This document shows positions 6,156-32,000 of a DNA stretch of 32,000 nt, piece after piece. How positions within the stretch are numbered: position 1 is the stretch's first letter; each line of letters starts with the position of its first letter. Made by a program: the position numbers and the translations under genes. Under the pieces are notes generated by a model that had not been told where the DNA came from, made no database searches, and saw only the letters and a program-made list of their open reading frames with translations. The stretch is from Erysipelotrichaceae bacterium (GTDB lineage: Bacteria; Bacillota_I; Bacilli_A; Erysipelotrichales; Erysipelotrichaceae): positions 120,001 through 152,000 of the forward strand of contig JAUVVC010000003.1 in NCBI GenBank assembly GCA_030604855.1. The letters run 5' to 3'.

Positions 6156-6157
6156 AT

Positions 6158-6186
6158 TTTCCAAACTATCCACAAAGTTGTACAAT
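6158..6186 (+). promoter_or_regulatory. Candidate promoter TTTCCA-17-TACAAT placing the TSS at or next to the ATG of the WYL gene (possible leaderless mRNA)
   Basis: The -10 ends 6 nt before the A of the ATG at 6193. There is no Shine-Dalgarno upstream of this ATG. Confidence 0.35.
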
Positions 6187-6192
6187 TGAAGC

Positions 6193-10820: not shown

Positions 10821-10844
10821 GGTGCAATAGTAAAGGTGGGCACT

Positions 10845-11786: not shown

Positions 11787-11795
11787 GAGGAACAC

Positions 11796-12674: not shown

Positions 12675-12686
12675 AAGGAGAAAGAA

Positions 12687-14228: not shown

Positions 14229-14246
14229 TATAAAAGGAGAATCCAT

Positions 14247-18440: not shown

Positions 18441-18450
18441 AAGGAGATGT

Positions 18451-20033: not shown

Positions 20034-20582
20034 ATGGCATATTCAATACGCGACTTTACAAGTAGAATACGAGCTTTGGTTCTCAAGCGTTCCATCGATC
20101 TGGTGGAACAAGCGAAAGTCAAAGTCATTGACCAGGACGATGAACATGCCCAGTTTCATGTCGAAAACAATCGTGACAGCTATTATCATGTGGAAGTTCG
20201 CTTGAATCATGGCGATGTGACTTTCACCCATTGTGATTGTCCGTATCGTGGCGTGGGTTTATGCAAGCATACCGGTGCGGCTCTGCTTCATCTTTTGGTT
20301 CAAGATGGCTTTCACCCCAACGAGTTTGAAGTGGACGATTTCCATTTTGAGGACAGTGAAGTGGTGGATGTGGATGCGAATGAAGAGACATTCCATAAAC
20401 TGATCAAAGAGATCAGTGTCGATCACGATTTTGAGTTGGTTAAGTTCTTATCCACTCAGCCCAAGGAACAATTATTAACGTTTATTCTGAAGTATCTTGA
20501 GGAATCTGAAGATATCCGTTTGGTTGTGATGGCGTATCTCTGGTATAAGAGTCAGAATCCAAAACCCCCGTTTTTATCCTAA
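20034..20582 (+). CDS. SWIM zinc-finger domain protein (unknown function)
   Basis: [21 protein letters not shown] fits the C-x-C-x(n)-C-x-H SWIM signature. It lies 27 nt downstream of msrB with an AGAGAGG RBS. Confidence 0.7.
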
Positions 20583-20601: not shown

Positions 20602-20672
20602 CGTGCCATCTTATCGATTGGTGACTTTAGTTCTGTCATCATTACAGATTGACAAGACTGTTTTTCGATTGA

Positions 20673-20701
20673 TTGAATCTTCACAAGTCCCATTCTATAC
20701 T
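20673..20701 (+). promoter_or_regulatory. Candidate mannitol operon promoter TTGAAT-17-TATACT
   Basis: Hexamers at 20673-20678 and 20696-20701 with a 17-nt spacer. GATTGA repeats lie upstream at 20647, 20667 and 20671. Confidence 0.55.
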
Positions 20702-20749
20702 GATAGTGACGATGAAGAATTCATCGACATACCGTTAAAAGGAGGTATT

Positions 20750-21805
20750 ATGAAAGAAAAAGTGCAGAGTTTTGGCCGCTTCCTATCCGGAATGGTCATG
20801 CCGAACCTTGGTGCGTTCATTGCTTGGGGTTTGATTACGGCATTGTTCATTCCTACAGGTTGGTTGCCTAACGAAACGTTTTCCGCATTAGTTGGTCCAA
20901 TGATCGTATACTTGTTGCCATTATTGATTGGTTACACAGGTGGACGCGTCGTACACGGTCAACGTGGTGCTGTGGTGGGGGCTGCAGCGACCATGGGTGT
21001 TATCGTTGGAACAAGCATCCCAATGATGTTGGGTGCAATGATCATGGGTCCTGTCACCGCTTGGGTCTTGAAAAAGATTGATGAAGCGTTGGATGGGAAA
21101 GTTCCTGCTGGCTTTGAAATGTTGGTTGCCAACTTCTCAGCTGGGATCGAAGCGGCAGTATTTGCTGTCTTGGGTCTGATCGTTGTTGGTCCGTTTGTAG
21201 AAGCTGCTTCTAATTTATTGGGTAATGGTGCAAAAGTCTTGGTTGACTCCGGCTTGTTGCCACTTGTATCCATCGTAGTCGAACCTGCTAAAATTCTCTT
21301 CTTGAATAATGCGATCAACCATGGCGTATTGAGCCCATTGGGTATCGCGCAAGTTGCTGAAGCTGGCAAGTCCATCTTCTTCTTGGTTGAAACCAACCCT
21401 GGTCCAGGTTTGGGCGTCTTGATCGCTGCTTACTTGTTCGGAAAAGGTTTGACAAAAGAATCTGCTCCTGGAGCAATCATCATCCACTTCTTGGGTGGTA
21501 TTCATGAAATCTATTTCCCATACGTCTTGATGAATCCGCTATTGTTGTTGGCTGTCATCGCTGGTGGTGCAACAGGTGTCTTCACATTCGTATTGCTCAA
21601 TGCTGGTTTGGTGGCTCCTCCATCACCTGGTTCAATCTTCGCTCTTTCCGCTATGGCATCGGGTGACTTGATTAAGGTTTGGGTTGGTATCGCTACTTCT
21701 GCCGCTGTCTCCTTCTTTGTAGCATCATTCGTTTACAAATTTACCGAAGGTAAAAAAGACCTAGACGAAGCTACAGCTGAAAGTGCTGCTAACAAAAATC
21801 TATGA
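20750..21805 (+). CDS. mtlA: PTS mannitol-specific transporter, IIC component (stand-alone)
   Basis: [29 protein letters not shown] is the typical MtlA N-terminus. GGAGG RBS lies 4 nt upstream of the ATG at 20750. The ORF-track extension to 20603 covers the promoter region and is rejected. Confidence 0.9.
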
Positions 21806-22080
21806 TTAAGAAAATTGTCTTCGCTTGTGATGCTGGAATGGGTTCCAGTGCCATGGGCGCAACAACCTTAAACAAGAAACTAAAAGCGGCAGGCTTGGAT
21901 ATTAAAGTAGTGCATACGGCAATTGAAGATGTGCCGAGTGATGCGGAACTGATCGTTACGCACACCTCCTTGGGCAATCGTGCTCGCAAGGAACATCCTA
22001 ATGTAGAAGTCGTGACCATCAACAGTTTCGTTGGTGCTCCAGAATACGATCAACTCGTAAAGAAGTTGTCGGGTAAATAA
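21802..22080 (+). CDS. PTS mannitol-type IIB component (stand-alone, 92 aa)
   Basis: [16 protein letters not shown] phosphocysteine loop. ATGA overlap with IIC. Confidence 0.85.
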
Positions 22081-22086
22081 TCTGAA

Positions 22087-22108
22087 GGGGTAGAAATACC
22101 CCTTTTTA
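22087..22108 (+). terminator. Hairpin terminator between IIB and mtlR
   Basis: GGGGTA-GAAA-TACCCC followed by TTTTT. Confidence 0.7.
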
Positions 22109-22186
22109 TATTTGGCATTAATAAGAAATGATAAAGATAAATCGTGGCACTATAGAATAGAAGGGATTAAGGTTTATAATGGAATC

Positions 22187-24313
22187 ATGAAACAACAGTT
22201 GACCTTTTTAAGTGGACGTGTCATTCAGTGTTTGATCCATTTATGCAATGCGAATGATTACATGACGGTCAATGATTTGGCATTGGCCATTAAAACAAGC
22301 AAGCGAACCCTTTTTCGTGAGCTTAAAGATATCAATGATATTTTGAAAGCGTATCAGGTTCAATTGGAATCAAGACCAAAACATGGCGTTCGTCTTGTTT
22401 GTGAACAAGACCAACGTTTGCATTTCAAAAGTATTCTTTTGCAAATCGGAGCGCATCAGAACAACTTAAGCAAAGAAGATCGTCAAACCATTCTTCTATC
22501 GGAGCTTTTGAAAAACAAGTCCTTACAGAAATTGATTGTTTATGCCAATCAATTTGAAGTTTCCGAAGCTACTATAAGCAATGATATCGATAGCTTAGAA
22601 CCACAGCTTACGAAGTATGGCTTACGCATGTTGCGTAAGCCAGGCAGTAATCTAAGTTTAGAAGGAAATGAAGAAGCGATCCGCAAAGCGATTCGTGATT
22701 TTGTGTATCGGCATATGGAAGAAGACAAATTGGTTCGCTTGTTAAACCAACAAATGCCTTGGGATGTGGAGAATTACTTTAAGAACCAAGGTCCTGATAG
22801 CATCCTCAATGTCTTGAATAAGGACATTTTGTGGCAGGTCATTCACATCTTGAAGGAGAATGATTCGGTCTGGATCAATCGTTTGGCACAGAACTCTTAT
22901 ATTGGTTTGATTCTGCATTTGACGATTGCGATTGAGCGTCTGAAACATCGTGAACCGATCACCATCGATCCTGAGCTGCTTACTCAACTCAAGTCCGATC
23001 CTATGTTTGATAAGGCTAAGGAATTGGCTGAGTATTTTGAGGATGAGTTCGACTTGGACTTCCCGATCGAAGAGATTGCTTATATTTCAATGCATCTCAA
23101 AGGAGCTCGACTCTTGCATGTGGATGTGATGGAGACTTTGGATGATCATGATCTTTTTAGTGCTCAAGAGTTGCAGAAACTGGTATCCAAATTGATTGAA
23201 TCCTTTGAGAAGCTCAGTGGAACTTGGTTACACCAAGACGAGATCCTTGGTTATGGTTTGATCACCCATCTTCGCCCCGCCTTAACGCGCTTATTTTATA
23301 AACTTGAGATTCGGAATCCACTTCTGAATCAAATCAAAACGCAATACACACAGGTTTTCAACCTAAGTCAAGAAGCCTGCAAGTTGGTTGAGGACGAACG
23401 GATTCAAAATCTAAATGAAAATGAAGTCGGTTTCATCGCCATGCACTTTGGGGCAGCTTTGGAACGCATTAAGCAGAACGAACCCAAACGGATTGTGAAA
23501 GTGGCGGTTTTATGTGCGAGTGGGATTGGCATTTCAAGCTTACTGGCCTCACGCATCAAACGCAGTCTTCAAGACAGTGTCGAAGTCGTTCCACGTTCAC
23601 ACCTCGATCTGGCTTCGCTTCAGAAGGAACAGTTCGATCTCTTGGTCAGTACCATGGAAATCGGTGAGACCCACATTCCTAAGCTGATTGTCAATCCTTT
23701 GCTCAGTGATGAGGATATCGTTCAAATTCAAACACGAGTATCAAAGCTGGCGGCGTCATCCTATCACCTTGATTCGGACGTGCAAGAAGATTTTGTGTCG
23801 ATCATGAGCAAACAGATTGACTTGAATCAAGCCGTCTTGGGTTTGTTAAACAACTTCGTTTGTGAAATGGTTCCTTCCAGCTCAAGCCCACAGGATTTGA
23901 TGCGCTCCATTGCGGATCTGGCATGTGAGGATAACCAAGCTCAAGCCATCTTGTATAAGGATCTACAGATGCGAGAGACGATGGGTTCGGTTGTGATGGA
24001 AGATGAGCACTTTGCGATGTTTCATGCGAAGACGAGTGTCTTGAAGACACCACGGATGTACGTCCTTAGACCTACGGATGCACACTTTGATGCTTATGCA
24101 CCCGCTGAGATTCAAGTGATTGTGGCACTGCTTATCCCGGAACAAGTTCCCTCAGAACTCAATCTATGGATGAGTCACCTCAGTTCGGCATTGTTGGAGA
24201 ATGATGCTTATCGCATCGCAATCTTTACCAAATCAAAGGAATCGATACAAAATGAAATCTTGAGTGTCTTAAAAGGACCAATCAAGGCGTGGTATCGAAA
24301 GGTGAGCGGATGA
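22187..24313 (+). CDS. mtlR: PRD-containing transcriptional activator MtlR (HTH - PRD1 - PRD2 - EIIB(Gat)-like - EIIA(Mtl)-like)
   Basis: N-terminal HTH MTVNDLALAIKTSKRTLFRELKDI. PRD blocks IGLILHLTIAIERLK and GLITHLRPALTRL. EIIB-like VAVLCASGIGISSLLA. EIIA-like FAMFHAKT. The ATG at 22187 was chosen over the TTG at 22112, but the start is uncertain because the RBS is weak. Confidence 0.85.
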   Translation: MKQQLTFLSGRVIQCLIHLCNANDYMTVNDLALAIKTSKRTLFRELKDINDILKAYQVQLESRPKHGVRLVCEQDQRLHFKSILLQIGAHQNNLSKEDRQTILLSELLKNKSLQKLIVYANQFEVSEATISNDIDSLEPQLTKYGLRMLRKPGSNLSLEGNEEAIRKAIRDFVYRHMEEDKLVRLLNQQMPWDVENYFKNQGPDSILNVLNKDILWQVIHILKENDSVWINRLAQNSYIGLILHLTIAIERLKHREPITIDPELLTQLKSDPMFDKAKELAEYFEDEFDLDFPIEEIAYISMHLKGARLLHVDVMETLDDHDLFSAQELQKLVSKLIESFEKLSGTWLHQDEILGYGLITHLRPALTRLFYKLEIRNPLLNQIKTQYTQVFNLSQEACKLVEDERIQNLNENEVGFIAMHFGAALERIKQNEPKRIVKVAVLCASGIGISSLLASRIKRSLQDSVEVVPRSHLDLASLQKEQFDLLVSTMEIGETHIPKLIVNPLLSDEDIVQIQTRVSKLAASSYHLDSDVQEDFVSIMSKQIDLNQAVLGLLNNFVCEMVPSSSSPQDLMRSIADLACEDNQAQAILYKDLQMRETMGSVVMEDEHFAMFHAKTSVLKTPRMYVLRPTDAHFDAYAPAEIQVIVALLIPEQVPSELNLWMSHLSSALLENDAYRIAIFTKSKESIQNEILSVLKGPIKAWYRKVSG

Positions 24314-25020
24314 TCAAAATCTATGTGGTCTGTGATGCAGGAATGGGCTCCAGTGCTTTGGGAGCGAGCCTGTTAAAAAAGGAATTCAAGAATTCAAGTG
24401 TGGAAGTGCAGATTCAAAATGTGTCGATTGATATGGACATGCGTGAAGCAGATCTATTGGTTACGCACCAACATTTTGAGTCCAGTCTAAGGAAACATTA
24501 TCCAGGAAAACTGATTGTGGGCTTGGATGATTTCTTAAATAAACAAAATCTAAAAAAGGTGGTACAGATGATGGAAAACACAAAAAAAGCAGTCTTATTG
24601 AAGTCGAATATTCGTATTAAAACGGAGAATGTCACCAGTGATGAAGCCATCGTAGCGGTGGGCAAACAACTCTTAGAGAGTGGTTATGTCGAAGAAAAGT
24701 ACATTGAGGGCATGTTGGAAAGAGATCACAGTCTATCGGTTTTCATGGGCAATAAGATTGCACTTCCGCATGGTGAATATGACTATAAGAAGAATATTTT
24801 AAACAGTGGCATTGTGGTGGATGTGTATCCCAATGGCATCGACTGGCATGGTGAGACCGTGAATCTTGTCGTTGGTTTAGCAGGTATTGGTGAAGATCAC
24901 ATCCAGATCTTAAGCAATATCGCAACGGTCTTTGGTGAAATCGAAGAAGTGGATAAAGTCTTGGAACACCAAGATGTCGATATGATTTATGAATTGCTCA
25001 CAGCGGAGGATAACGCGTGA
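24310..25020 (+). CDS. mtlF: PTS mannitol IIB-IIA fusion (second IIB domain fused to MtlF-type IIA)
   Basis: N-terminus [16 protein letters not shown] (IIB Cys loop). C-terminus GNKIALPHGEYDY (IIA His). The ATG at 24310 forms an ATGA overlap with the mtlR stop and has an AAGGTGAG RBS. Confidence 0.8.
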   Translation: MIKIYVVCDAGMGSSALGASLLKKEFKNSSVEVQIQNVSIDMDMREADLLVTHQHFESSLRKHYPGKLIVGLDDFLNKQNLKKVVQMMENTKKAVLLKSNIRIKTENVTSDEAIVAVGKQLLESGYVEEKYIEGMLERDHSLSVFMGNKIALPHGEYDYKKNILNSGIVVDVYPNGIDWHGETVNLVVGLAGIGEDHIQILSNIATVFGEIEEVDKVLEHQDVDMIYELLTAEDNA

Positions 25021-26150
25021 AAACCGCCGTTCACTTCGGTGCTGGAAACATCGGACGTGGCTTCATTGGATTGTTGTTAAATAAAGCAGGCTATCATGTG
25101 ACTTTTTCAGATGTTAGTGATGTCTTGATTGATGCATTGAAAGAACGTAAACAGTATACGGTTGAATTGATCTCGGATGCGGCAGAGACGATCGTTGTGG
25201 AGGGGGTTGATGGACTCAACTCCAAATTCGAACAAGATCGCTTAACCGATCTCTTGGCAACGGCAGATTTGATCACCACAGCAGTTGGACCCAATATTCT
25301 ACCTTTTATTGCAAAGAACATCGCACCAGCGATTGAAAAACGTGTCTTGAATAATTCGATTCAGTTCACCAACATCATTGCATGTGAGAATACAATTGAA
25401 GGCTCTACTAAGTTGAAGAACGCACTATTGCCATTGTTAAGTCCTGAAGCCTTGGTTCACGTGGAACAATTCATTGGGTTCCCAGATTCCGCAGTGGATC
25501 GCATCGTTCCGAATCAAAAGAATGAAGATGTACTTTGGGTAAAAGTTGAACCTTTCTATGAATGGGTCGTGGATTCATCGAAGATCAAAGGAGAACTGGA
25601 GATTCCAGGGGTTCATTTCACGCCGAGTTTAGAAGCCTACATTGAACGCAAGCTCTTCACCGTCAACACCGGACATGCGAGTACGGCCTACAGTGGGTAT
25701 CTAAAAGGGTATACAACCGTATATGAAGCCATTCAAGATCCCGAAGTTGAAGCTTTGGTTCGTGGTGTTTTAGCTGAAACCAGTTCACTCTTGGTGGTGA
25801 AACACGGCTTTGATGCTCAAACACAAGCAGGGTATGTGGATAAGACCATCAAACGGTTCAAGAATCCAAGTGTCATTGATGAAGTGGTGCGTGTCGGTCG
25901 TGGACCTTTACGTAAGCTCTCCGCAAACGATCGTTTCTTTAAACCCATGTTGGAGTTGTACAATCGTGATATGGATTCCACTCATCTTCAGAAAGTTGTC
26001 GCATTGGCTTTGCAGTTCAATGTGAGTGAAGATGAAGAAAGTGTTAAACTTCAAGCTTTGATTCTAGACAAAGGTAAACAGGCCGCACTGGCTGAAGTCA
26101 GTGGTTTGGCACAGGACCATCCCCTTATTCAATCCATTCTTAAGCTCTAG
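25017..26150 (+). CDS. mtlD: Mannitol-1-phosphate 5-dehydrogenase
   Basis: AVHFGAGNIGRGFIG NAD motif and VDRIVP. 377 aa. GTG start in a GTGA overlap with the preceding stop. Confidence 0.9.
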   Translation: MKTAVHFGAGNIGRGFIGLLLNKAGYHVTFSDVSDVLIDALKERKQYTVELISDAAETIVVEGVDGLNSKFEQDRLTDLLATADLITTAVGPNILPFIAKNIAPAIEKRVLNNSIQFTNIIACENTIEGSTKLKNALLPLLSPEALVHVEQFIGFPDSAVDRIVPNQKNEDVLWVKVEPFYEWVVDSSKIKGELEIPGVHFTPSLEAYIERKLFTVNTGHASTAYSGYLKGYTTVYEAIQDPEVEALVRGVLAETSSLLVVKHGFDAQTQAGYVDKTIKRFKNPSVIDEVVRVGRGPLRKLSANDRFFKPMLELYNRDMDSTHLQKVVALALQFNVSEDEESVKLQALILDKGKQAALAEVSGLAQDHPLIQSILKL

Positions 26151-26165
26151 CAATAGAGCTTTTTT
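26142..26165 (+). terminator. Candidate terminator after mtlD
   Basis: AAGCTCTA-GCAA-TAGAGCTT followed by TTTT. The stem is AT-rich and includes the stop codon. Confidence 0.5.
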
Positions 26166-26230: not shown

Positions 26231-26244
26231 CGTAAACGCTTACA
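26231..26244. promoter_or_regulatory. cre-like (CcpA) site CGTAAACGCTTACA
   Basis: One mismatch to WTGNAANCGNWNNCW on either strand, with the central CG present. It ends 8 nt upstream of the -35. Confidence 0.4.
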
Positions 26245-26252
26245 ATAATCTA

Positions 26253-26281
26253 TTGACAGTGTTTTTAAGTCTTGGTATTGT
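26253..26281 (+). promoter_or_regulatory. Candidate promoter TTGACA-17-TGgTATTGT for the thiolase operon
   Basis: Consensus -35 at 26253-26258, an extended -10 TG at 26273-26274, and -10 TATTGT at 26276-26281. Confidence 0.6.
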
Positions 26282-26293
26282 ATGGATATAAAA

Positions 26294-26323
26294 GGTGAAT
26301 CACCATTCATATTTAGATTCACA
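26294..26323. promoter_or_regulatory. Nested palindromes in the 5' leader (TGAAT-CACC-ATTCA; GTGAATC...GATTCAC)
   Basis: TGAAT/ATTCA arms lie at 26296-26309. GTGAATC (26295-26301) pairs with GATTCAC (26317-26323). The whole element sits between the -10 and the RBS. Confidence 0.35.
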
Positions 26324-26333
26324 GTGAGGGTCC

Positions 26334-27551
26334 ATGGATAATAAAGTTTATATTGTAAGTGCGAAAAGAAGCGCAACAGGTTCTTTCTTAGGCAGTCTTA
26401 AAAATGTATCAGCACAGGTCTTGGGTGGTGAAGTTGTCAAGGCGATTTTAGCTGAGACGAAAGTTGACCCAAGTTTGATTGATGAAGTGATTATGGGGAA
26501 TATTTTACCTGCAGGACAGGGTCAAGGGGTTGCACGTCAAGTATCATTGGCAGGCGGTGTACCTGAAACGGTTCCAGCGTATAGTTTGAACATGGCCTGT
26601 GGCAGTGGAATGAAAGCGGTGATGTTAGGCTATGCGAACATCAAAGCGGGACTTCATCAACTGGTCTTGGCCGGTGGGGTTGAAGTCATGAGCGCGGCTC
26701 CTTATCTTCTTCCAAAAGAAGTGAGAAGTGGTCATAAGATGGGTGGTCTGAATGTTTCCGATCACATGATCGACGATGCATTGACGGACGCATTCCATCA
26801 TGTGCATATGGGCATAACAGCTGAGAATATTGCGGAGCGCTATAACATCTCACGCGAAGCACAGGAAGCTTTTGCTTATCAATCTCAACTCAAAGCGATT
26901 CAAGCGGTGGATGCGGGTGTATTCAAGAATGAAATCGTACCGATATCCATCAAACAAGGGAAAGAAGTGTTTGTATTTGATACGGATGAATATCCAAATC
27001 GTAAAACAAATTTGGAAAAACTCGCGACTTTACGTCCAGCCTTCAAGAAAGAAGGCAGTGTCACAGCGGGGACCGCTTCGGGCATCAACGATGGGGCGAG
27101 TGCCGTCTTATTGGCAAGTGGCGAGATGTGTGAAAAATTGAATCTGACACCTTTGGCCGAAGTCATCGGCATCGGTCAAGGGGGTGTGGATCCACTCTAT
27201 ATGGGCTTAGGTCCGACACCGGCGATCCGCCAAGCACTGAAACATGCGGATCTCAAACTAAGTGACATGAACGTGATTGAGTTGAATGAAGCGTTCGCAG
27301 CTCAAAGTCTTGGGGTCATTCATGAGTTGGCAATCGAGCACCAAGTCTCTGAAGAAGGCTTATTGAAGAAGACCAATCCGAATGGTGGTGCGATTGCCTT
27401 GGGTCATCCCGTCGGGGCGAGTGGGAATCGAATCCTCGTAACCTTGGTTCATGAAATGAAACAAATGAAGATGGATTTAGGTTTGGCATCGTTGTGCATC
27501 GGTGGTGGCATGGGTACAGCCCTTGTCATTCGTAATATCAAAGGAGAATGA
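26334..27551 (+). CDS. Acetyl-CoA C-acetyltransferase (thiolase II)
   Basis: YIVSAKRSATGSFLGSL, the active-site NMACGSGMKA, GHPVGASG and CIGGGMG, all canonical for the biosynthetic/degradative thiolase family. Confidence 0.9.
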   Translation: MDNKVYIVSAKRSATGSFLGSLKNVSAQVLGGEVVKAILAETKVDPSLIDEVIMGNILPAGQGQGVARQVSLAGGVPETVPAYSLNMACGSGMKAVMLGYANIKAGLHQLVLAGGVEVMSAAPYLLPKEVRSGHKMGGLNVSDHMIDDALTDAFHHVHMGITAENIAERYNISREAQEAFAYQSQLKAIQAVDAGVFKNEIVPISIKQGKEVFVFDTDEYPNRKTNLEKLATLRPAFKKEGSVTAGTASGINDGASAVLLASGEMCEKLNLTPLAEVIGIGQGGVDPLYMGLGPTPAIRQALKHADLKLSDMNVIELNEAFAAQSLGVIHELAIEHQVSEEGLLKKTNPNGGAIALGHPVGASGNRILVTLVHEMKQMKMDLGLASLCIGGGMGTALVIRNIKGE

Positions 27552-27553
27552 AC

Positions 27554-28273
27554 ATGCGATTAGAAAACAAAGTAGCGATCATCACAGGCGGTGCGCGCGG
27601 ATTAGGCCAAGCAATGGCAGTGGCTTTTGCGAATGAAGGGGCTAAAGTCATTGCGGCGGATATGGGTGAGATGAGTTATTCACATCCTAATGTCGAAGGA
27701 TATGCCTTGAATGTGACAGACAGTGCGGCGTGCGAAGCTTTCTTTAAAGAAGTCGTCGAAAAGTATGGCACGATTGATATCCTTGTGAACAATGCGGGCA
27801 TCACACGCGATGCTTTGACACGTAAGATGACTGAAGAAATGTGGGATTTGGTCATTGATGTCAACTTGAAAGGTGTCTTTAATCTGACTCGTCATGTCGG
27901 TCCATACATGCAGACAAAACAAACCGGTTCGATCATCAACATCGCTTCGATCGTTGGTGTTTTTGGAAACATCGGTCAAGCAAATTATGCCGCATCCAAA
28001 GCAGGTGTCATTGGATTGACGAAGACATGGGCTAAGGAATTTGGCATGAAGGGTGGCAATGTGCGTGTCAATGCGATTGCGCCAGGCTATGTCATGACGG
28101 ATATCTTAAAAACCGTACCTCAAGACTTGTTGGATAAATTTGCGGCGATGACGATGTTGGGACGTTTGGGACAACCGGAAGAAATCGCGAATGTAGCGTT
28201 ATTCTTAGCGAGCGAAGAGGCATCCTACATCACCGGTCAAGTGATTGAACCCAATGGAGGCATGCGACTCTAA
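27554..28273 (+). CDS. FabG-like short-chain dehydrogenase/reductase (3-oxoacyl reductase type)
   Basis: TGGARGLG, NNAGITRD, S...YAASKAG catalytic motif and GQVIEPNGGM. The ATG at 27554 (GGAG 7 nt upstream) is preferred over 27548. Confidence 0.85.
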   Translation: MRLENKVAIITGGARGLGQAMAVAFANEGAKVIAADMGEMSYSHPNVEGYALNVTDSAACEAFFKEVVEKYGTIDILVNNAGITRDALTRKMTEEMWDLVIDVNLKGVFNLTRHVGPYMQTKQTGSIINIASIVGVFGNIGQANYAASKAGVIGLTKTWAKEFGMKGGNVRVNAIAPGYVMTDILKTVPQDLLDKFAAMTMLGRLGQPEEIANVALFLASEEASYITGQVIEPNGGMRL

Positions 28274-29163
28274 TGAAAAACTATGAATTAAAAACTTTAG
28301 TGTTAAGTAATGGTGAAACCATTGCGTATCGTGAAGCAGGCAGTGGTTCAAAGACCGTAGTCTTGGTTCATGGCAATATGAGCTCTTCGGTTCATTTCCA
28401 AACCACAATGGAAGCTTTGGAAAAAGATTATAAAGTCTACGCCGTGGATATGCGTGGTTTTGGGGATAGTTCTTACAATAATGAACTGAACAGCCTCCGT
28501 GATTTCAGTGAAGACATTCAACTTTGGGTTGAAGCTTTGGGCCTCAAAGACTTCAATATCCTCGGTTGGTCGACCGGTGGTGGTGTCGTCTTGGAATTAG
28601 CAGCGGATATGCCAGAACGGGTTAATAAAGTCTTCTTATTGGATTCTGTTGGCATCAAGGGTTATCCAATGTTTAAAAAAGATGAAAAAGGTCAACCCAT
28701 CCTTACACAATTAATCACAACAAAAGAAGAGATCAAAGTTGATCCTGTACAAGTGTTGCCAATATTAACAGCTTATGCGACACGCAATAAAGACTTACTC
28801 AAAATGATTTGGAATGCGGTTATCTACAATACCGTTCAACCCAATGAAGAGGATTACGATGCGTATTTGGAAGCGATGCTCAAACAACGCAATTTAGTCG
28901 ATGTGGATTACAGTTTGGTTCATTTCAATATGACATCAGAAAATAATTTACTTGGTATGGGCAGTGGTCGTATGGCACTGGTTGAAGCACCGATTGTCAT
29001 CTTACATGGCAAGAATGATTATGTCGTTCCTTTCAATCAAGCTGAAGAAATGAAGCAGTTCTTCGGCGATCAAGCTGTTTTGATTCCTTTCGAGGGAGGA
29101 CATTCCCTACCAACTGATTGTTTTGATCAATATGTCTCTGTTCTCAAGGAGCACATCGTTTAA
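28273..29163 (+). CDS. Alpha/beta-hydrolase fold protein (Ser-Asp-His triad intact)
   Basis: HGNMSS oxyanion region, nucleophile elbow GWSTGG, HGKNDYVVP and GGHSLP. TAATG overlap with the upstream gene. Confidence 0.75.
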   Translation: MKNYELKTLVLSNGETIAYREAGSGSKTVVLVHGNMSSSVHFQTTMEALEKDYKVYAVDMRGFGDSSYNNELNSLRDFSEDIQLWVEALGLKDFNILGWSTGGGVVLELAADMPERVNKVFLLDSVGIKGYPMFKKDEKGQPILTQLITTKEEIKVDPVQVLPILTAYATRNKDLLKMIWNAVIYNTVQPNEEDYDAYLEAMLKQRNLVDVDYSLVHFNMTSENNLLGMGSGRMALVEAPIVILHGKNDYVVPFNQAEEMKQFFGDQAVLIPFEGGHSLPTDCFDQYVSVLKEHIV

Positions 29164-30185
29164 TGGAAACGGTTGGAATATTGGGTTTAGGGGTCTATCT
29201 TCCTGAGGGAAGAATGAGTGCACAAGAAATCGCTGATGCCACACAAGGTGTCTGGAGTGAACAAGCCATCATTGAAAAACTAGGAATCGTCGAGAAGACC
29301 ATTCCCAGTGTAAAAGATGGGACTCAAGAAATGGGAGCTCTCGCCTCATTAAAAGCCATAGAAAATGCTGGAATCGATCCTAGAGAGATTGATGTCATCC
29401 TCTGCTTTGGGGAAGAATGGAAAGAATATCCGCTCACTACCTCCGCTCTCTACATTCAAGATCGTATCGGGGCTGTGAATGCCTGGGGCATCGATGTTCA
29501 AAATCGTTGTTGCACATCGGTAACGGCTTTGAAGATGGCTAAGGATATGCTTATCGCAGATGAAGAGATTGACACGATTCTTGTGTGTGGTGGTTACCGC
29601 AATGGAGATTTCGTGGATTATACCGATAAAAACATGTCGATGATGTACAACTTATCGGCAGGTGGTGGTGCCTTGATTCTACGTAAAGGCTTAAAGAAGA
29701 ATCTACTCTTGGGCTCACACATCATCTCAGATGGTTCATTGGCACGTACGGCGGGTGTTGAAATCGGCGGTACCGTGAATCCTATGAATAAAGACAATGT
29801 CGAGGAAGGCAAGAAATCACTACGCTTACTTGATCCTGAAAAGATGAAGAATCGTTTGAATGCAGTGTCGCAAAATAATTGGTTGACCTGCATTGATGAG
29901 GCTTTACGTAAATCCAGAATGTCTCGTTCGGATATCGGTTATTTGGATATTTTACATATCAAACGTTCCGCACACTTTGGCATGCTTAAAGATCTAGGTT
30001 TGACCGAGGACCAAAGCATCTACCTTGAAAACTATGGACACATGGGCCAAGTCGATCAGATTTTATCCTTGTGCTTAGCACTCGAATCCGGTCAAGTCAA
30101 AGATGGTACGCTTGTCTGTATGTTGGCAGCGGGTATCGGTTATGTCTGGGCATCGAATATCGTACAGTGGGGAGAGATTCAATGA
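29163..30185 (+). CDS. KAS III (FabH)-like thiolase-fold condensing enzyme, atypical
   Basis: 340 aa. Start GILGLGVYLPEGRMSAQEI. Candidate active site NRC(116)C(117)TSVTAL, H265 in ILHIKRSAH, and YGH(293)MG where FabH has GNTS. TAATG overlap upstream and ATGA overlap downstream. Confidence 0.7.
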   Translation: METVGILGLGVYLPEGRMSAQEIADATQGVWSEQAIIEKLGIVEKTIPSVKDGTQEMGALASLKAIENAGIDPREIDVILCFGEEWKEYPLTTSALYIQDRIGAVNAWGIDVQNRCCTSVTALKMAKDMLIADEEIDTILVCGGYRNGDFVDYTDKNMSMMYNLSAGGGALILRKGLKKNLLLGSHIISDGSLARTAGVEIGGTVNPMNKDNVEEGKKSLRLLDPEKMKNRLNAVSQNNWLTCIDEALRKSRMSRSDIGYLDILHIKRSAHFGMLKDLGLTEDQSIYLENYGHMGQVDQILSLCLALESGQVKDGTLVCMLAAGIGYVWASNIVQWGEIQ

Positions 30186-31057
30186 GTACATTCGTACAAA
30201 TCCTTCTAAGAAGTTTGGAATCGGGGAGTGTCTATGCCTTGGCCGCTTTGGGGATCATCGTCATTTATCGCACATCCAACATCACTAACTTCGCACAAGG
30301 AGCTGTAGGGATGTTCAATACCTATGTCGTGACTTTCCTTGTGATTCAAGCAGGCTTTCCTTTATGGTTGGCAATCTTGGGTGGTGTAGGAACGGCAATT
30401 TTGATGGGGTTCACGATTGATTATCTCGTCATTCGTCACACAAAGAAAGTATCGCCGGTAGCGAAACAAATCATCACTTTGGGCTTGATTATGGTTGTCT
30501 TGGGCTTGGCTCCGATGTTCTTTGGAGTGGATCCTTTAAACCTTCCACGATTAATTCCGGATGGTAATGTCAATATCTTGGGTGCTAATCTTTCTTACAA
30601 TGGTTTATTCAATATTGTGTTTGGATTTACACTGATGTTCATCCTGTTTTATATCCTGCAAAATACAAAAGTGGGATTGGCGGTTCGTACCACCGCATCC
30701 AATGAGTACACAGCACGCTTGATGGGTGTACCCACCAAGACGGTTACCTTAGGGGCTTGGGCTCTAGCGGCAGTCTTAGGTTTACTGGCTGGGGTCATGA
30801 TCGCCCCTACAACTTCCGTCAACTTGAATCTGATGGATGTGGTCCAAGTCAATGCCTTGATCGCATGTGTGTTTGGAGGATTTCAAACCTTCTACGGACC
30901 TATTTTAGGGGCGTATATCATTGGCATCAGTCGGAATATGTTGCTTTATTACTATGATTCGGTCTGGGGTGGACAGATTTTATATGTTTTGATTCTCATC
31001 TTCTTAATCTTCAGACCCTATGGTTTGATCGGTAAGAAGGTCGTTAAGAAAGTGTAG
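30182..31057 (+). CDS. Branched-chain-amino-acid-type (Liv/HAAT family) ABC transporter permease, LivH-like
   Basis: LRSLESGSVYALAALGIIVIYRTSNITNFAQG is the typical LivH N-terminus. The ATG at 30182 overlaps the KAS III-like stop. The ORF-track extension to 30071 is rejected. Confidence 0.85.
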   Translation: MSTFVQILLRSLESGSVYALAALGIIVIYRTSNITNFAQGAVGMFNTYVVTFLVIQAGFPLWLAILGGVGTAILMGFTIDYLVIRHTKKVSPVAKQIITLGLIMVVLGLAPMFFGVDPLNLPRLIPDGNVNILGANLSYNGLFNIVFGFTLMFILFYILQNTKVGLAVRTTASNEYTARLMGVPTKTVTLGAWALAAVLGLLAGVMIAPTTSVNLNLMDVVQVNALIACVFGGFQTFYGPILGAYIIGISRNMLLYYYDSVWGGQILYVLILIFLIFRPYGLIGKKVVKKV

Positions 31058-31064
31058 GTGTGCG

Positions 31065-32000
31065 ATGAACAAAGTAAAAACACAGCTAAACTTTAAAGCT
31101 TTATTCAAGAATCCCTATGTGCAATTCATCCTCTTTGGTTTGGTTCTGAGCACACTACCCCTATTGTCTATACAATTCAGCTTTATCAAATCGGCATATA
31201 TCACGACGGTCGGTGTGGCACTCATCTATGCCATAGCGGCCTTGGGCCTCAATCTCCTTTTAGGATGGTCAGGCCTCATCTCCTTGGGTACGGCTGGGTT
31301 CATGGGTCTTGCGAGTTATATCTCAGCCTACCTCACCGTGGATATGGGCTTGCCCTTCGAAGTCGCACTGCTTGCGGCCATCCTGGTTCCCACATTCATT
31401 GGTATCTTGGTGGGCTTGGTATCGCTCAAGATTGAAGGTTTGTATCTTGCGATTGCGACTTTGGCGGTATCTGAAATTTTGAGAAAAACCTTTGAAGAAT
31501 TTGATCAGTTCACAGGTGCCTTCAGCGGTAAATCCGCGAAGTTCCCACAGTTGTTTGGCATGTTTCAATTGGATCGTGGCAGCACCTATTGGTTGATCGT
31601 ATTCATTCTGATTCTGGTGATGTTGATTACCTATAACATGGTGAATGGTCAGATCGGAAGAGCATTGAATGCCATGCGTGGTTCTGAAGCTGCGGCTCAA
31701 GCCATGGGCGTCAATCTACTTAAGTATCGTCTTGTCGCCTTTGCCTTGGCAACCATCTTCGCATCGGTTGCGGGTGTATTGTATGTGCATTTCATTCGTT
31801 ATTCCTATCCGTCCTCTTGGACCTTGAAGTTATCCTTGGATTTCCTGGCGATGATCGTCATTGGGGGTCTCCGTTCGATTTATGGAACGGTCTTGGGTGC
31901 ATTCATTGTCTTTGCGGTTCCGGATCTATTCTTAAAACAAATTCCTTATTTCAGTCAGTTGTCGTATACCTTGAATGGTATCTTAATCATCTTGGTCATC
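31065..32000 (+). CDS. Liv/HAAT family ABC transporter permease, LivM-like (3' end outside window)
   Basis: Not in the supplied ORF track because it has no stop in the window. My translation from the ATG at 31065 is open to nt 32000. It reads MNKVKTQLNF...ALIYAIAALGLNLLLGWSGLISLGTAGFMGLASY...GRALNAMRGSEAAAQAMGVNLLKYRLVAFALATIFASVAG, typical of LivM. Confidence 0.8.
   Translation, partial: MNKVKTQLNFKALFKNPYVQFILFGLVLSTLPLLSIQFSFIKSAYITTVGVALIYAIAALGLNLLLGWSGLISLGTAGFMGLASYISAYLTVDMGLPFEVALLAAILVPTFIGILVGLVSLKIEGLYLAIATLAVSEILRKTFEEFDQFTGAFSGKSAKFPQLFGMFQLDRGSTYWLIVFILILVMLITYNMVNGQIGRALNAMRGSEAAAQAMGVNLLKYRLVAFALATIFASVAGVLYVHFIRYSYPSSWTLKLSLDFLAMIVIGGLRSIYGTVLGAFIVFAVPDLFLKQIPYFSQLSYTLNGILIILVI

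What the first reader, a model, noticed from the sequence alone, without database searches (positions are those of the whole stretch)
26231..32000. Tightly coupled thiolase / FabG-like / alpha-beta-hydrolase / KAS III-like operon fused to a Liv-type ABC importer
Seen in sequence:
- One promoter (TTGACA-17-TGgTATTGT) drives the operon.
- Gene junctions are 2 nt, TAATG, TAATG and ATGA, then a 7-nt gap into livM-like.
- So four acyl-chemistry enzymes and an importer appear to be one translationally coupled unit.
- The visible part has no ACP, acyl-CoA ligase, CoA-transferase, PhaC or OleC-like gene.
- A cre-like site abuts the -35, and palindromes occupy the leader.

Established knowledge:
- Liv/HAAT transporters import amino acids, but also amides, urea and aromatic or aliphatic acids.
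- Thiolase plus a 3-oxoacyl reductase interconvert acetyl-CoA and C4 units.
- KAS III-like enzymes act as condensing enzymes or acyltransferases in many specialised pathways.

Inference: this is either a catabolite-repressed uptake-and-breakdown route for an unidentified beta-keto or beta-hydroxy acid or ester, or a small-molecule biosynthetic module. It does not match any textbook operon I recognise.
Basis: partly seen in the sequence, partly recalled or inferred. Interest (0 to 1): 0.7.

Follow-up and report, generated by a model that had tools for sequence, protein, structure and literature searches.

The report
Conserved hydroxybutyrate uptake-and-breakdown operon
This is the front half of a 12-gene operon, conserved in many anaerobic Firmicutes, that most likely imports 3-hydroxybutyrate-type acids or short esters (breakdown products of the bacterial storage polyester PHB) and converts them to acetyl-CoA. 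It also contains an uncharacterised FabH-like enzyme family that is nearly always encoded next to this type of importer, in both bacteria and archaea.

Summary

Extending the contig shows a 12-gene unit: thiolase, NAD-type FabG-like reductase, hydrolase 1, KAS III-like, livH, livM, livG, livF, lipoprotein binding protein, 4-hydroxybutyrate/butyryl-type CoA-transferase, hydrolase 2 and a TetR regulator. A terminator follows.

This gene set recurs in all 80 related genomes examined (Erysipelotrichaceae, Acholeplasma, Christensenella, Clostridia), so the importer is part of the unit and not a neighbour.

Hydrolase 1 is a clear homologue of the Bacillus thuringiensis intracellular PHB depolymerase. 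Related loci add acetate kinase and MaoC, acyl-CoA dehydrogenase and EtfBA.

Best reading: a catabolic route that takes up (R)-3-hydroxybutyrate or its oligomers and converts them through the CoA ester and acetoacetyl-CoA to acetyl-CoA. This matches the biochemically known Ilyobacter pathway. I found no published genetic description of this cluster.

The real unknown is the KAS III-like protein (NCBIfam NF005308). It is not a FabH. Its nucleophile is Cys or Ser, an invariant His replaces the FabH Asn, and there are extra invariant Lys, Ser and Asp residues. It lies beside HAAT-type ABC importers in haloarchaea as well. Substrate and mechanism are inferred, not shown.

The parts
26142..26161 (+). 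Intrinsic terminator of the upstream mannitol operon (mtlD). It marks the 5' boundary of the unit.
   Evidence: An 8-bp stem followed by a T-run. The mtlD ORF ends at 26150.
26231..26244 (+). cre-like site CGTAAACGCTTACA, a putative CcpA site, ending 8 nt upstream of the -35.
   Evidence: Matches the cre consensus at 13 of 14 positions. Conserved at -94 to -138 from the thiolase ATG in about 25 related loci.
26253..26281 (+). Sigma-A-type promoter: TTGACA, 17-nt spacer, TGgTATTGT (extended -10).
   Evidence: 10 of 12 matches plus TG, the best site in the region. This is a consensus match only.
26296..26309 (+). Palindrome TGAATCACCATTCA in the leader, overlapping GGTGAATCACC at 26294-26304. 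It is the putative operator of the operon's own TetR (FadR-like) repressor.
   Evidence: The only match in the window. The motif is about 57-fold enriched upstream of the thiolase gene across 64 loci. The leader RNA has no significant fold, z = 0.26.
26334..27551 (+). Acetyl-CoA C-acyltransferase (thiolase II type).
   Evidence: TIGR01930 scores 450 bits against a cutoff of 240; Pfam Thiolase_N and Thiolase_C. The catalytic motifs NMACGSG, GHPVGASG and CIGGGMG are visible in the translation.
27554..28273 (+). FabG/PhaB-like short-chain dehydrogenase, predicted NAD(H)-dependent. Proposed role: (R)-3-hydroxyacyl-CoA dehydrogenase.
   Evidence: NF009466 scores 249.6 bits against a cutoff of 222. 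The FabG and PhaB equivalog cutoffs are not reached. The Asp in 'VIAAD' at the end of beta-2 is present in 72 of 73 orthologues.
28273..29163 (+). Cytoplasmic alpha/beta hydrolase of the Bacillus thuringiensis PhaZ family (intracellular short-chain PHA depolymerase). Proposed role: 3-hydroxybutyrate oligomer or ester hydrolase.
   Evidence: NF050089 scores 378 bits against a cutoff of 300. PDB 8YNV/8YNW 'poly(3-hydroxybutyrate) depolymerase' matches at E = 2.4e-83, and 8YNV is from B. thuringiensis (PMC12278694). The nucleophile Ser in GWSxG is present in 55 of 55 orthologues. The translation starts directly with the hydrolase domain (Pfam match from residue 28), so I saw no N-terminal signal peptide; no predictor was run.
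29163..30185 (+). KAS III-like protein of the uncharacterised family NF005308/PRK06840, with a non-canonical active site. Function unknown. Proposed role: acyl transfer between an ester and CoA, or a specialised thiolase.
   Evidence: NF005308 scores 464 bits against a cutoff of 315, while the FabH model TIGR00747 scores only 107 against 292. Alignment of 86 members: C116 aligns with FabH C112 (Ser in Bacillus and Brevibacillus), the invariant H293 replaces FabH N274, and K87, H265, K267, S269 and D298 are invariant. AlphaFold2 model pLDDT 82.7; best PDB matches are FabH at TM about 0.8 and 22-24% identity.
30182..31057 (+). HAAT-family ABC permease (LivH/UrtB-like). Its start overlaps the KAS III-like stop (ATGA).
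   Evidence: Pfam BPD_transp_2. The LivH equivalog scores 56 bits against a cutoff of 379. It lies directly after the KAS III-like gene in 73 of 76 loci.
31065..32000 (+). HAAT-family ABC permease (LivM/UrtC-like), cut by the window end. It continues to window-equivalent position 32096.
   Evidence: Pfam BPD_transp_2. The full 343-aa gene is at L001 11903-12934. The rest of the operon lies outside the window, in L001 coordinates: livG 12924-13727, livF 13720-14439, lipoprotein SBP 14480-15703, CoA-transferase 15765-17072, hydrolase 2 17072-17887, TetR 17909-18499, terminator 18510-18533.

Best explanation
The window holds the first six genes of a 12-gene catabolic operon from an Erysipelotrichaceae bacterium. 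The operon takes up a short beta-hydroxy acid and turns it into acetyl-CoA. The substrate is most likely (R)-3-hydroxybutyrate and/or its di- or oligomeric esters released from PHB.

**Proposed flow (inferred from gene content, not shown):**
1. A lipoprotein binding protein and the LivHMGF-like ABC system import the acid or small oligomer.
2. Two cytoplasmic serine hydrolases, one a PhaZ homologue and one an MGS-M2-like esterase, cleave the ester bonds.
3. A CoA-transferase of the 4-hydroxybutyrate/butyryl-CoA:acetate family activates free 3-hydroxybutyrate at the expense of acetyl-CoA.
4. The NAD-dependent FabG/PhaB-like dehydrogenase oxidises (R)-3-hydroxybutyryl-CoA to acetoacetyl-CoA.
5. 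The thiolase gives two acetyl-CoA, which yield ATP through phosphotransacetylase and acetate kinase.

In related genomes an adjacent ackA-maoC-acad-etfBA operon adds a reductive branch, 3-hydroxybutyryl-CoA to crotonyl-CoA to butyryl-CoA to butyrate. That gives the known dismutation 2 3-hydroxybutyrate -> 2 acetate + butyrate.

**Proposed regulation (inferred):** expression is set by the operon's own FadR-like TetR repressor, bound at TGAATCACCATTCA in the leader and probably released by an acyl-CoA, and by CcpA at the cre next to the -35.

**The KAS III-like protein** is an integral but unexplained member. My best guess is that it uses its Cys (or Ser) to take an acyl group from an ester and pass it to CoA, or the reverse. 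That would conserve the ester bond energy. It is not a fatty-acid-synthesis FabH.
For: **The operon and its conservation**
- Contig extension shows the whole operon.
- The same gene set is found in 80 genomes at 68-94% KAS III-like identity. In the 50 loci with full flanks, coat, hyd2 and tetR occur in 50, the ABC genes in 49, and thl, sdr and sbp in 48.

**Enzyme identities**
- Hydrolase 1 matches NF050089 at 378 bits (cutoff 300) and the B. thuringiensis PHB depolymerase 8YNV at E = 2.4e-83.
- Hydrolase 2 matches the esterase MGS-M2 (4Q3L) at E = 1e-73.
- The CoA-transferase matches 4-hydroxybutyrate CoA-transferases at E = 1e-100, and its best NCBIfam hit is butyryl-CoA:acetate CoA-transferase.
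- The SDR has the NAD-type Asp in 72 of 73 orthologues.

**Accessory genes**
- Acetate kinase is adjacent in 15 of 80 loci.
- MaoC (an R-specific hydratase fold), acyl-CoA dehydrogenase and EtfBA occur in 13 of 80. In five Erysipelotrichaceae loci they form a divergent operon facing the thiolase gene.

**Importer and regulation**
- The binding protein is far from LivJ (42 bits against a cutoff of 477). Its closest solved relative is 4N03.
- The TetR resembles FasR/FadR.
- The operator motif is about 57-fold enriched upstream of the thiolase gene, and the cre is positionally conserved.

**Biochemical precedent**
- The stoichiometry and enzyme activities match the anaerobic 3-hydroxybutyrate/PHB fermentation of Ilyobacter, as cited in PMC10096456.
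Against: - No ligand, transcript or enzyme activity has been measured. The substrate is inferred mainly from one hydrolase family and from pathway logic.
- Hydrolase 1 is missing from 8 of the 50 complete loci, and its position varies.
- The pathway as drawn does not need the KAS III-like enzyme. Yet that gene is the most conserved in the locus (about 70% identity across classes), so an essential step is not understood.
- Distant members of the KAS III-like family sit with AMP-ligases, hydratases and, in Bacillus, a secreted NHL propeller, without a thiolase or PhaZ. The family's substrate range is therefore probably wider than C4.
- The cre lies upstream of the -35, so repression is not certain.
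- I could not check whether this organism makes PHB itself.
Confidence: 0.55

Rival explanations
1. The architecture is the same catabolic one, but the substrate differs. The locus would import and degrade some other beta-hydroxy, beta-keto or enoyl acid, lactone or ester, for example 3-hydroxyvalerate or medium-chain (R)-3-hydroxy acids, or a branched or substituted acid that an ordinary thiolase cannot cleave. The KAS III-like enzyme would then carry out the special C-C or ester cleavage.
For: - Distant family members are linked to AMP-dependent CoA ligases, MaoC or crotonase hydratases, 3-hydroxyacyl-CoA dehydrogenase and thiolase, but not to PhaZ.
- The closest solved relative of the binding protein is 4N03. 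I recall it as a fatty-acid-binding protein, but that is from memory.
- Hydrolase 2 gives its best, though sub-threshold, hit to the enol-lactonase PcaD.
- The TetR is FadR/FasR-like.
Against: - The PhaZ-family hydrolase scores above the curated equivalog cutoff.
- The CoA-transferase belongs to a short-chain (C4) family.
- The window operon has no hydratase or acyl-CoA dehydrogenase, so only a substrate already oxidised at C3 and two cleavage products away from acetyl-CoA fits easily.
Confidence: 0.2
2. The locus is an internal PHB (or oligo-3-hydroxybutyrate) cycle. Thiolase and reductase would make 3-hydroxybutyryl-CoA, the KAS III-like enzyme would act as a non-canonical polyester or oligoester synthase forming ester bonds from the CoA thioester, and the PhaZ homologue would mobilise the product.
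For: - The order thiolase, reductase, PhaZ-like, KAS III-like resembles phaA-phaB plus a polymerase slot.
- From my own knowledge, KAS III-like enzymes such as CerJ form esters from acyl-CoA.
- No PhaC is present in the roughly 41 kb examined.
- Bacillus and haloarchaea, which I recall as known PHA producers, carry family members.
Against: - The reductase is NAD-type, not NADPH-type.
- An importer, a CoA-transferase and acetate kinase are conserved partners.
- To my knowledge PHB is not known in Erysipelotrichaceae or Acholeplasma.
- The Bacillus and archaeal versions lack the thiolase and reductase.
Confidence: 0.08
3. The locus is a fermentative product-forming operon. Acetyl-CoA would be condensed and reduced to 3-hydroxybutyryl-CoA and released as 3-hydroxybutyrate, or as butyrate where MaoC, Bcd and Etf are present, as an electron sink. 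CcpA would activate it during sugar excess.
For: - The cre is centred near -50, upstream of the -35. From my own knowledge this position is associated with CcpA activation at ackA and pta.
- Extended loci contain a full acetyl-CoA-to-butyrate enzyme set plus a But-like CoA-transferase.
Against: - An SBP-dependent importer, two esterases and a substrate-type TetR repressor are not needed to form a product.
- The window lineage lacks Bcd, Etf and MaoC.
Confidence: 0.08
4. The locus is a small-molecule biosynthetic module. The KAS III-like enzyme would condense or transfer a thiolase/reductase-derived acyl unit onto an imported compound.
For: - KAS III-like enzymes often act in specialised metabolism.
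- In Brevibacillus laterosporus the family member lies a few kb from an NRPS-like gene.
Against: - There is no carrier protein, tailoring enzyme, exporter or other biosynthetic hallmark in the locus.
- The gene set is almost invariant across very different taxa and habitats.
- It is associated with acetate kinase and Etf.
Confidence: 0.05
5. The Liv genes encode an ordinary Leu/Ile/Val importer that merely lies next to unrelated enzymes.
For: The permease and ATPase genes hit Liv models as their best named relatives.
Against: - All Liv equivalog cutoffs are missed by a wide margin: LivH 56 against 379, LivM 108 against 366, LivJ 42 against 477.
- The KAS III-like gene and livH are adjacent in 73 of 76 loci, with overlapping stop and start.
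- The same KAS III-like/ABC pairing is found in haloarchaea and a Gram-negative bacterium.
Confidence: 0.02

Closest known systems
Anaerobic 3-hydroxybutyrate/PHB fermentation of Ilyobacter polytropus and I. delafieldii (Stieb & Schink 1984; Janssen & Schink 1993, as cited in PMC10096456)
   Same: The enzyme logic matches: CoA transfer to 3-hydroxybutyrate, oxidation to acetoacetyl-CoA, thiolysis, acetate plus ATP, and a reductive branch through crotonyl-CoA to butyrate (2 3-hydroxybutyrate -> 2 acetate + butyrate). The gene content of the window operon, together with the ackA-maoC-acad-etfBA neighbours in related loci, covers these steps.
   Different: That pathway is known only biochemically and in Fusobacteria. 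No gene cluster is assigned to it in the papers I could search. It has no described ABC importer, intracellular PhaZ-type hydrolases or KAS III-like enzyme.
E. coli atoDAEB (short-chain fatty acid / acetoacetate utilisation)
   Same: The design is the same: a transporter, an acetyl-CoA-dependent CoA-transferase and a thiolase in one operon convert a C4 keto-acid to acetyl-CoA.
   Different: The protein families differ: an AtoE permease in place of a HAAT ABC system, and a class I two-subunit transferase in place of the 4-hydroxybutyrate/But type. ato has no dehydrogenase, esterases or KAS III-like gene, and it uses a two-component regulator in place of TetR and cre. This comparison rests on my own knowledge of the ato operon.
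Bacillus thuringiensis intracellular PHB depolymerase PhaZ (PDB 8YNV; NCBIfam NF050089)
   Same: Hydrolase 1 scores above the family's curated cutoff, matches the solved structure at E = 2.4e-83 and keeps the G-W-S-x-G nucleophile.
   Different: The Bacillus enzyme mobilises the cell's own granules in an organism that has a PHA synthase. Here the gene sits in an uptake operon, no synthase gene lies within about 41 kb, and identity to a Bacillus homologue is only 43%.
FabH (KAS III) and KAS III-like acyltransferases such as CerJ and DpsC
   Same: The thiolase/FabH fold is shared (TM about 0.8). The nucleophile sits at the FabH Cys112 position and the Gly-rich oxyanion loop is conserved. The Cys/Ser variation at the nucleophile recalls the Ser of the acyltransferase DpsC.
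   Different: The FabH Asn274 is an invariant His. The HxKRS motif replaces FabH's HQAN. There is a 12-residue insertion with invariant Met, Lys, Arg and Leu. FabH model scores fall far below cutoff. No ACP or FAS II genes are in the locus. The genomic partners are an ABC importer and acyl-CoA catabolic enzymes.
Non-amino-acid HAAT importers linked to CoA-dependent catabolism (e.g. Rhodopseudomonas palustris CouP with CouAB, and the pim cluster)
   Same: A Liv-type binding-protein system is encoded with a CoA-activating enzyme and hydratase or beta-oxidation enzymes for an organic acid.
   Different: Those systems carry no KAS III-like gene and act on aromatic or dicarboxylic acids. This comparison is from my own knowledge and was not tested here.

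Membership tests
NCBIfam NF005308 / PRK06840 (KAS III-like, named '3-oxoacyl-ACP synthase', function untested) | Whole-protein HMM score above the curated cutoff of 315 bits | tested here: met
   464.5 bits. Bacillus 555 bits and Salarchaeum 407 bits belong to the same family.
FabH / beta-ketoacyl-ACP synthase III | HMM score above the curated cutoff (TIGR00747 292 bits; NF006829 249 bits) | tested here: not met
   106.7 and 112.2 bits.
FabH / beta-ketoacyl-ACP synthase III | Cys-His-Asn catalytic triad | tested here: not met
   C116 aligns with C112, but N274 is replaced by His293 in 86 of 86 members. The His244 region reads LHxKRS. The nucleophile is Ser in Bacillus and Brevibacillus.
FabH / beta-ketoacyl-ACP synthase III | Works with ACP and malonyl-ACP in a FAS II context | tested here: inconclusive
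   No ACP or fab genes occur in the window or L001.
Intracellular short-chain PHA depolymerase (NF050089; B. thuringiensis PhaZ type) | HMM score above the curated cutoff of 300 bits, and homology to the solved enzyme | tested here: met
   378.2 bits. 8YNV matches at E = 2.4e-83 over residues 7-291.
Intracellular short-chain PHA depolymerase (NF050089; B. thuringiensis PhaZ type) | Serine nucleophile in the G-x-S-x-G elbow | tested here: met
   GWSTGG at residues 98-103. The Ser is conserved in 55 of 55 orthologues.
Intracellular short-chain PHA depolymerase (NF050089; B. thuringiensis PhaZ type) | Hydrolyses native PHB granules made by the same cell (host has a PHA synthase and phasins) | not testable with these tools
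   No PhaC or phasin domain appears among the genes scanned in about 41 kb. The whole genome was not available and no activity data exist.
Acetyl-CoA C-acyltransferase (thiolase II, TIGR01930) | HMM score above cutoff, plus the Cys/His/Cys catalytic motifs | tested here: met
   450 bits against a cutoff of 240. The motifs are read in the translation.
Acetoacetyl-CoA reductase PhaB / FabG equivalogs | Equivalog cutoffs and NADPH-type cofactor pocket | tested here: not met
   TIGR01829 scores 239 against 302, NF042966 196 against 436 and FabG TIGR01830 273 against 298. Only the broad subfamily NF009466 is passed, at 249.6 against 222. Asp36 at the end of beta-2 predicts NAD(H).
High-affinity branched-chain amino acid transporter LivJHMGF | Equivalog-level similarity of the binding protein and permeases | tested here: not met
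   Scores against cutoffs: LivH 56.5/379, LivM 107.8/366, LivJ-type SBP 42.5/477, LivG 257/362, LivF 236/441. Only the HAAT superfamily domains (BPD_transp_2, Peripla_BP_6) are met.
Butyryl-CoA:acetate / 4-hydroxybutyrate CoA-transferase family | AcetylCoA_hydro plus AcetylCoA_hyd_C domains, and equivalog cutoff | tested here: inconclusive
   The domains are present and PDB 3EH7 matches at E = 2.8e-100. TIGR03948 scores only 298 against 675. Family membership is therefore yes, but substrate is not assigned.
OleABCD olefin / beta-lactone system | OleA with OleC (AMP-dependent beta-lactone synthetase), OleB and OleD together | tested here: not met
   No AMP-binding gene is present in the 12-gene operon. 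OleA structures rank below FabH in the fold search.

The most novel reading that the evidence does not exclude
The NF005308 KAS III-like family may be a new class of CoA-dependent ester-cleaving (thiolytic) acyltransferase that works hand in hand with a HAAT ABC importer. It would convert imported oxo-esters, such as 3-hydroxybutyrate dimers or oligomers, directly into acyl-CoA without ATP or a CoA donor. That would be a thioester counterpart of sugar phosphorolysis, roughly doubling the ATP yield per ester bond for fermenters. The system would be conserved from Firmicutes to haloarchaea.
Probability: 0.17. Interest if true: 0.85.

Novelty: new variant of a known kind. Interest (0 to 1): 0.6.

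Why it matters
[quoted passage not shown] How strict anaerobes and wall-less Firmicutes consume its breakdown products has no described genetic basis that I could find.
- **A ready marker.** This locus would give a marker gene set for 3-hydroxybutyrate or PHB-oligomer scavenging in digesters, sediments, groundwater and guts. In guts, host ketone bodies may also be a substrate.
- **A testable unknown.** The locus isolates a well-defined, widely conserved enzyme family with a FabH fold but a different active site. Its fixed partnership with an ABC importer across two domains of life points to chemistry not yet assigned to the thiolase superfamily. A handful of in-vitro assays could test this directly.

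Tried and rejected
- **Riboswitch or leader RNA.** Rfam found only a tRNA elsewhere in the window, and the leader fold is no better than shuffles. The palindromes are therefore read as a DNA operator.
- **HMG-CoA-synthase-like chemistry.** The N-terminal half hits archaeal HMGCS models weakly, and the motif GEEWKEY places a Glu near the HMGCS catalytic position. However, that Glu is Ser or Pro in Bacillus and haloarchaeal members. It is not a family feature, so I dropped this as the main idea.
- **Canonical FabH, OleA or PHA-operon membership.** All fail their defining features (see the membership tests).
- **Literature.** Five full-text searches found no description of this cluster or family. 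They covered combinations of 3-hydroxybutyrate, CoA-transferase, thiolase, Erysipelotrichaceae, Acholeplasma, PRK06840/PRK06839, and haloarchaea with FabH. Two searches failed on syntax.
- **Binding-site reading of the binding protein.** The LivK and Atu2422 alignments were too divergent to call ligand-contact residues reliably. No conclusion is drawn.
- **Uninformative look-ups.** P0123 was not on record, and the contigs for P0131 and P0134 were too short to show context.
- **Internal promoters and terminators.** Matches are at or below chance.

Full report
**Observation**

- TTGACA lies at 26253-26258, followed by a 17-nt spacer ending in TGG and TATTGT at 26276-26281. This is the best sigma-A-like site in the region.
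- It follows the terminator of the upstream mannitol operon, at 26142-26161.
- The junctions are as follows:
  - a 2-nt gap between thiolase and SDR, where the SDR starts at 27554 behind AAAGGAGA and the same start was called on the source contig;
  - TAATG at 28273;
  - TAATG at 29163;
  - ATGA at 30182-30185;
  - a 7-nt gap before livM.
- The cre-like CGTAAACGCTTACA lies at 26231-26244, and the palindrome TGAATCACCATTCA at 26296-26309.
- The promoter and cre are consensus matches and are not significant on their own: promoter scan 9 found against 12.3 expected, cre 9 found against 3.5 expected. Their weight comes from conservation, described below.

**The whole unit**

The KAS III-like protein was found, with an identical sequence, on a 58.9-kb public contig (Logan SRR14872665). 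That contig continues past the window (window position = L001 position + 19162). The operon has 12 genes:
- thiolase
- SDR
- hydrolase 1
- KAS III-like
- livH, livM, livG, livF
- Peripla_BP_6 binding protein, whose N-terminus ends in the lipobox-like LVAC (read in the translation)
- a CoA-transferase of the acetyl-CoA hydrolase/transferase type
- hydrolase 2
- TetR

An intrinsic terminator lies 11 nt after tetR (L001 18510-18533).

**What the proteins are**

| Gene | Main evidence |
|---|---|
| Thiolase | TIGR01930, 450 bits |
| SDR | FabG/PhaB-like; passes only a broad FabG subfamily cutoff; Asp at the end of beta-2 ('VIAAD') in 72 of 73 orthologues |
| Hydrolase 1 | NF050089 'intracellular short-chain-length PHA depolymerase', 378 bits (cutoff 300); PDB 8YNV/8YNW at E = 2.4e-83; G-W-S-x-G Ser invariant |
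| Hydrolase 2 | Metagenomic esterase MGS-M2 (4Q3L), E = 1e-73 |
| CoA-transferase | 4-hydroxybutyrate CoA-transferases at E = 1e-100; best NCBIfam hit butyryl-CoA:acetate CoA-transferase, below cutoff |
| Transporter | HAAT family; far below every Liv equivalog cutoff |
| Binding protein | Closest solved relative 4N03, E = 1e-14 |
| TetR | Weak resemblance to FasR and Bacillus FadR |

- In classical SDRs the Asp at the end of beta-2 marks a preference for NAD(H). This is established SDR knowledge, and the application here is an inference.
- 8YNV is the Bacillus thuringiensis enzyme according to PMC12278694.
- I saw no N-terminal signal sequence on either hydrolase when reading the translations. 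This was judged by eye, not with a predictor.

**Conservation**

- A scan of one genome per GTDB species found 236 relatives of the KAS III-like protein.
- The best 80 (68-94% identity) come from Erysipelotrichaceae, Acholeplasma and Acholeplasmataceae, Christensenella, several Clostridia, Proteiniclasticum, Haloplasmataceae and Izemoplasmatales. Their sources include lakes, groundwater, digesters and guts.
- The window itself is from Erysipelotrichaceae (94% identity to two MAGs).
- tblastn with the 12 proteins shows the same set almost everywhere.
- In the 50 loci with enough flanking sequence, CoA-transferase, hydrolase 2 and TetR are present in 50, the ABC genes in 49, thiolase, SDR and SBP in 48, and hydrolase 1 in 42.
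- The KAS III-like gene is followed directly by livH in 73 of 76 loci.
- The importer is therefore part of the unit. The 'merely adjacent LIV transporter' reading is rejected.

**Accessory genes**

Clustering the remaining ORFs of the 80 loci gave two recurrent additions.
- Acetate kinase occurs in 15 loci.
- A block of MaoC-type hydratase, acyl-CoA dehydrogenase, EtfB and EtfA occurs in 13 loci.
- In five Erysipelotrichaceae genomes these form a divergent operon, ackA-maoC-acad-etfB-etfA, that faces the thiolase operon.
- In Christensenella-type loci the block lies between a divergent tetR and the thiolase gene.
- In the window's lineage the mannitol operon occupies that position.

**Regulation**

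- The cre-like element is kept at -94 to -138 from the thiolase ATG in about 25 Erysipelotrichaceae-type loci whose coding sequences have diverged to 65-75%.
- TGAAT-N4-ATTCA occurs 40 times in 1.4 Mb of loci. Of these, 27 lie in the 260 nt upstream of the thiolase gene, against 0.5 expected. It also appears in Acholeplasma-type loci where tetR is divergent. This is what one expects of the operator of the locus's own TetR.
- In the window the palindrome lies between the -10 and the ribosome-binding site, which is a repressing position.
- The leader RNA has no significant structure and no Rfam match.
- The cre is centred about 50 nt upstream of the likely start site. Whether it represses or activates cannot be decided from sequence.

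**Mechanism**

The simplest pathway that uses these parts is:
1. import of (R)-3-hydroxybutyrate and/or its small oligomers;
2. ester hydrolysis by the two cytoplasmic hydrolases;
3. CoA transfer from acetyl-CoA;
4. NAD-dependent oxidation of (R)-3-hydroxybutyryl-CoA;
5. thiolysis to acetyl-CoA, then acetate plus ATP.

- The R-specific enzyme families (FabG/PhaB-type SDR, MaoC) fit the R configuration of PHB monomers.
- The MaoC/Acad/Etf branch gives the butyrate-forming half of the dismutation 2 3-hydroxybutyrate -> 2 acetate + butyrate.
- That dismutation, along with CoA-transferase, dehydrogenase and thiolase activities, is what was described biochemically for Ilyobacter (cited in PMC10096456).
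- All of these steps are inferred from homology and context. None has been shown.

**The unexplained member**

The KAS III-like protein is the most conserved gene of the locus, yet the pathway above does not need it.
- It belongs to NF005308/PRK06840 (464 bits), a family with no tested function.
- phmmer against 1.84 billion cluster representatives finds only 105 with E <= 1e-30.
- The closest solved structures are FabH enzymes at 22-24% identity and TM about 0.8.
- In an alignment of 86 members:
  - the nucleophile aligns with FabH Cys112 but is Ser in Bacillus and Brevibacillus;
  - FabH Asn274 is an invariant His;
  - the FabH His244 segment is replaced by an invariant H-x-K-R-S;
  - Lys87, Asp298, Tyr327 and Trp329 are invariant;
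  - there is a 12-residue insertion with invariant Met, Lys, Arg and Leu.
- It is therefore not a FabH.

**Distant members of the family**

Members at 33-41% identity show the same company.

| Source | Context |
|---|---|
| Three haloarchaeal plasmids | The gene overlaps the last permease gene of a HAAT ABC operon. Two of them add an AMP-ligase, a PcaD-like hydrolase and MaoC. |
| A Gram-negative groundwater bacterium | AMP-ligase, crotonase, ABC, KAS III-like |
| Bacillus sp. N5-665 | TetR, AMP-ligase (PRK06839), MaoC, KAS III-like, secreted NHL propeller, ABC |
| Two metagenomic loci | Two paralogues each, with thiolase, dehydrogenase, hydrolases and CoA-transferase |

The constant partners are a HAAT importer, an acid-activating enzyme and beta-oxidation-type enzymes.

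My working idea is acyl transfer between an oxo-ester and CoA. From my own knowledge, ester-forming KAS III homologues such as CerJ and the Ser-nucleophile DpsC are precedents, and CoA-dependent thiolysis of PHB has been reported for a Ralstonia depolymerase. For a fermenter this would save the acetyl-CoA spent in CoA transfer. A specialised thiolase, or retro-aldol chemistry, remain possible.

**Comparison and novelty**

- The pathway logic is known from Ilyobacter fermentation, ato-type keto-acid use and PhaZ. Several parts are clear members of known families.
- I could not find the following described in the searched literature:
  - the conserved 12-gene architecture;
  - its spread through Erysipelotrichia, Mollicutes-like lineages and Clostridia;
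  - the dedicated non-amino-acid HAAT importer;
  - the NF005308 enzyme.
- I rate it a new variant of a known kind. One component may turn out to be new chemistry.

**Limits**

- There are no expression, ligand or activity data.
- The rest of the genome could not be checked for PHA synthase genes.
- The substrate assignment rests heavily on one hydrolase family.
- Distant family contexts suggest a broader substrate range than C4.

Noticed in passing
L015, L017, L018, L026, L031 (about 2100-6950, minus strand); L037, L043, L057, L060, L070 (about 4400-8000): An ackA-maoC-acyl-CoA dehydrogenase-etfB-etfA block lies next to the thiolase operon in related genomes. In some it is divergent, in others it sits between tetR and the thiolase gene. 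The window's lineage has the mannitol operon at that position.
   Followed up: partly
L082 6804-13008, L084 6511-13020, L086 6800-13005 (haloarchaeal plasmids): The same KAS III-like family occurs in archaea. There the gene overlaps the last permease gene of a Liv-type ABC operon. In Halomicrococcus only the ABC genes and the KAS III-like gene are present together.
   Followed up: partly
L083 9454-19730 (Bacillus sp. N5-665); L085 9317-15745 (Brevibacillus laterosporus): The Bacillus version of the module is TetR, AMP-ligase (PRK06839), MaoC, KAS III-like (with a Ser in place of the Cys nucleophile), a 621-aa NHL/SGL beta-propeller that looks secreted and is possibly an extracellular lactonase or esterase, and a Liv-type ABC system. 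In Brevibacillus an NRPS-like gene lies a few kb downstream.
   Followed up: partly
L090 6264-9766; L093 2733-4820: Some genomes carry two paralogous KAS III-like genes side by side or divergent around tetR. This hints at a heterodimer, as in PqsBC.
   Followed up: no
L001 15723-15746 (window-equivalent 34885-34908, outside the window): A perfect 10-bp GC-rich hairpin (GTTGCGGAGG-GAAA-CCTCCGCAAC) lies between the binding-protein gene and the CoA-transferase gene, with no T-run on the coding strand. It may be an mRNA-stabilising or attenuating element that raises binding-protein expression.
   Followed up: no
window 8178-10664 (+): An 828-aa fusion protein combines a pyridine-nucleotide disulphide oxidoreductase (CoA-disulphide-reductase-like) with rhodanese, TusA and DsrE domains. 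This is a sulphur-trafficking multidomain enzyme.
   Followed up: no
window 10836-18440 (+): An Opp/Dpp-type ABC importer (two permeases, a family-5 binding protein and two ATPases, the second unusually long at 539 aa) is followed by a gamma-glutamyltranspeptidase. This suggests uptake and cleavage of glutathione or gamma-glutamyl peptides.
   Followed up: no
window 18349-19532 (+): A chromate-transporter (ChrA) homologue is encoded as two overlapping half-size genes.
   Followed up: no
window 20603-26150 (+): A mannitol PTS operon (EIIC, EIIB, MtlR with PRD and EIIA domains, EIIB/A protein, mannitol-1-phosphate dehydrogenase) lies immediately upstream. It is co-linear with the operon only in the closest relatives (12 of 80 loci).
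   Followed up: partly
window 20034-20582 (+) and 7166-8035 (+): Two ORFs (182 aa and 289 aa) have no Pfam match. The 182-aa protein recurs in 11 related loci.
   Followed up: no
window 2914-2995 (+): A single tRNA gene. It is the only Rfam match in the window.
   Followed up: no
window 3029-4183 (-) and 6193-7173 (+): A hemerythrin plus PAS_10 domain protein and a WYL/WCX-domain regulator. Both are sensory or regulatory genes of unknown target.
   Followed up: no
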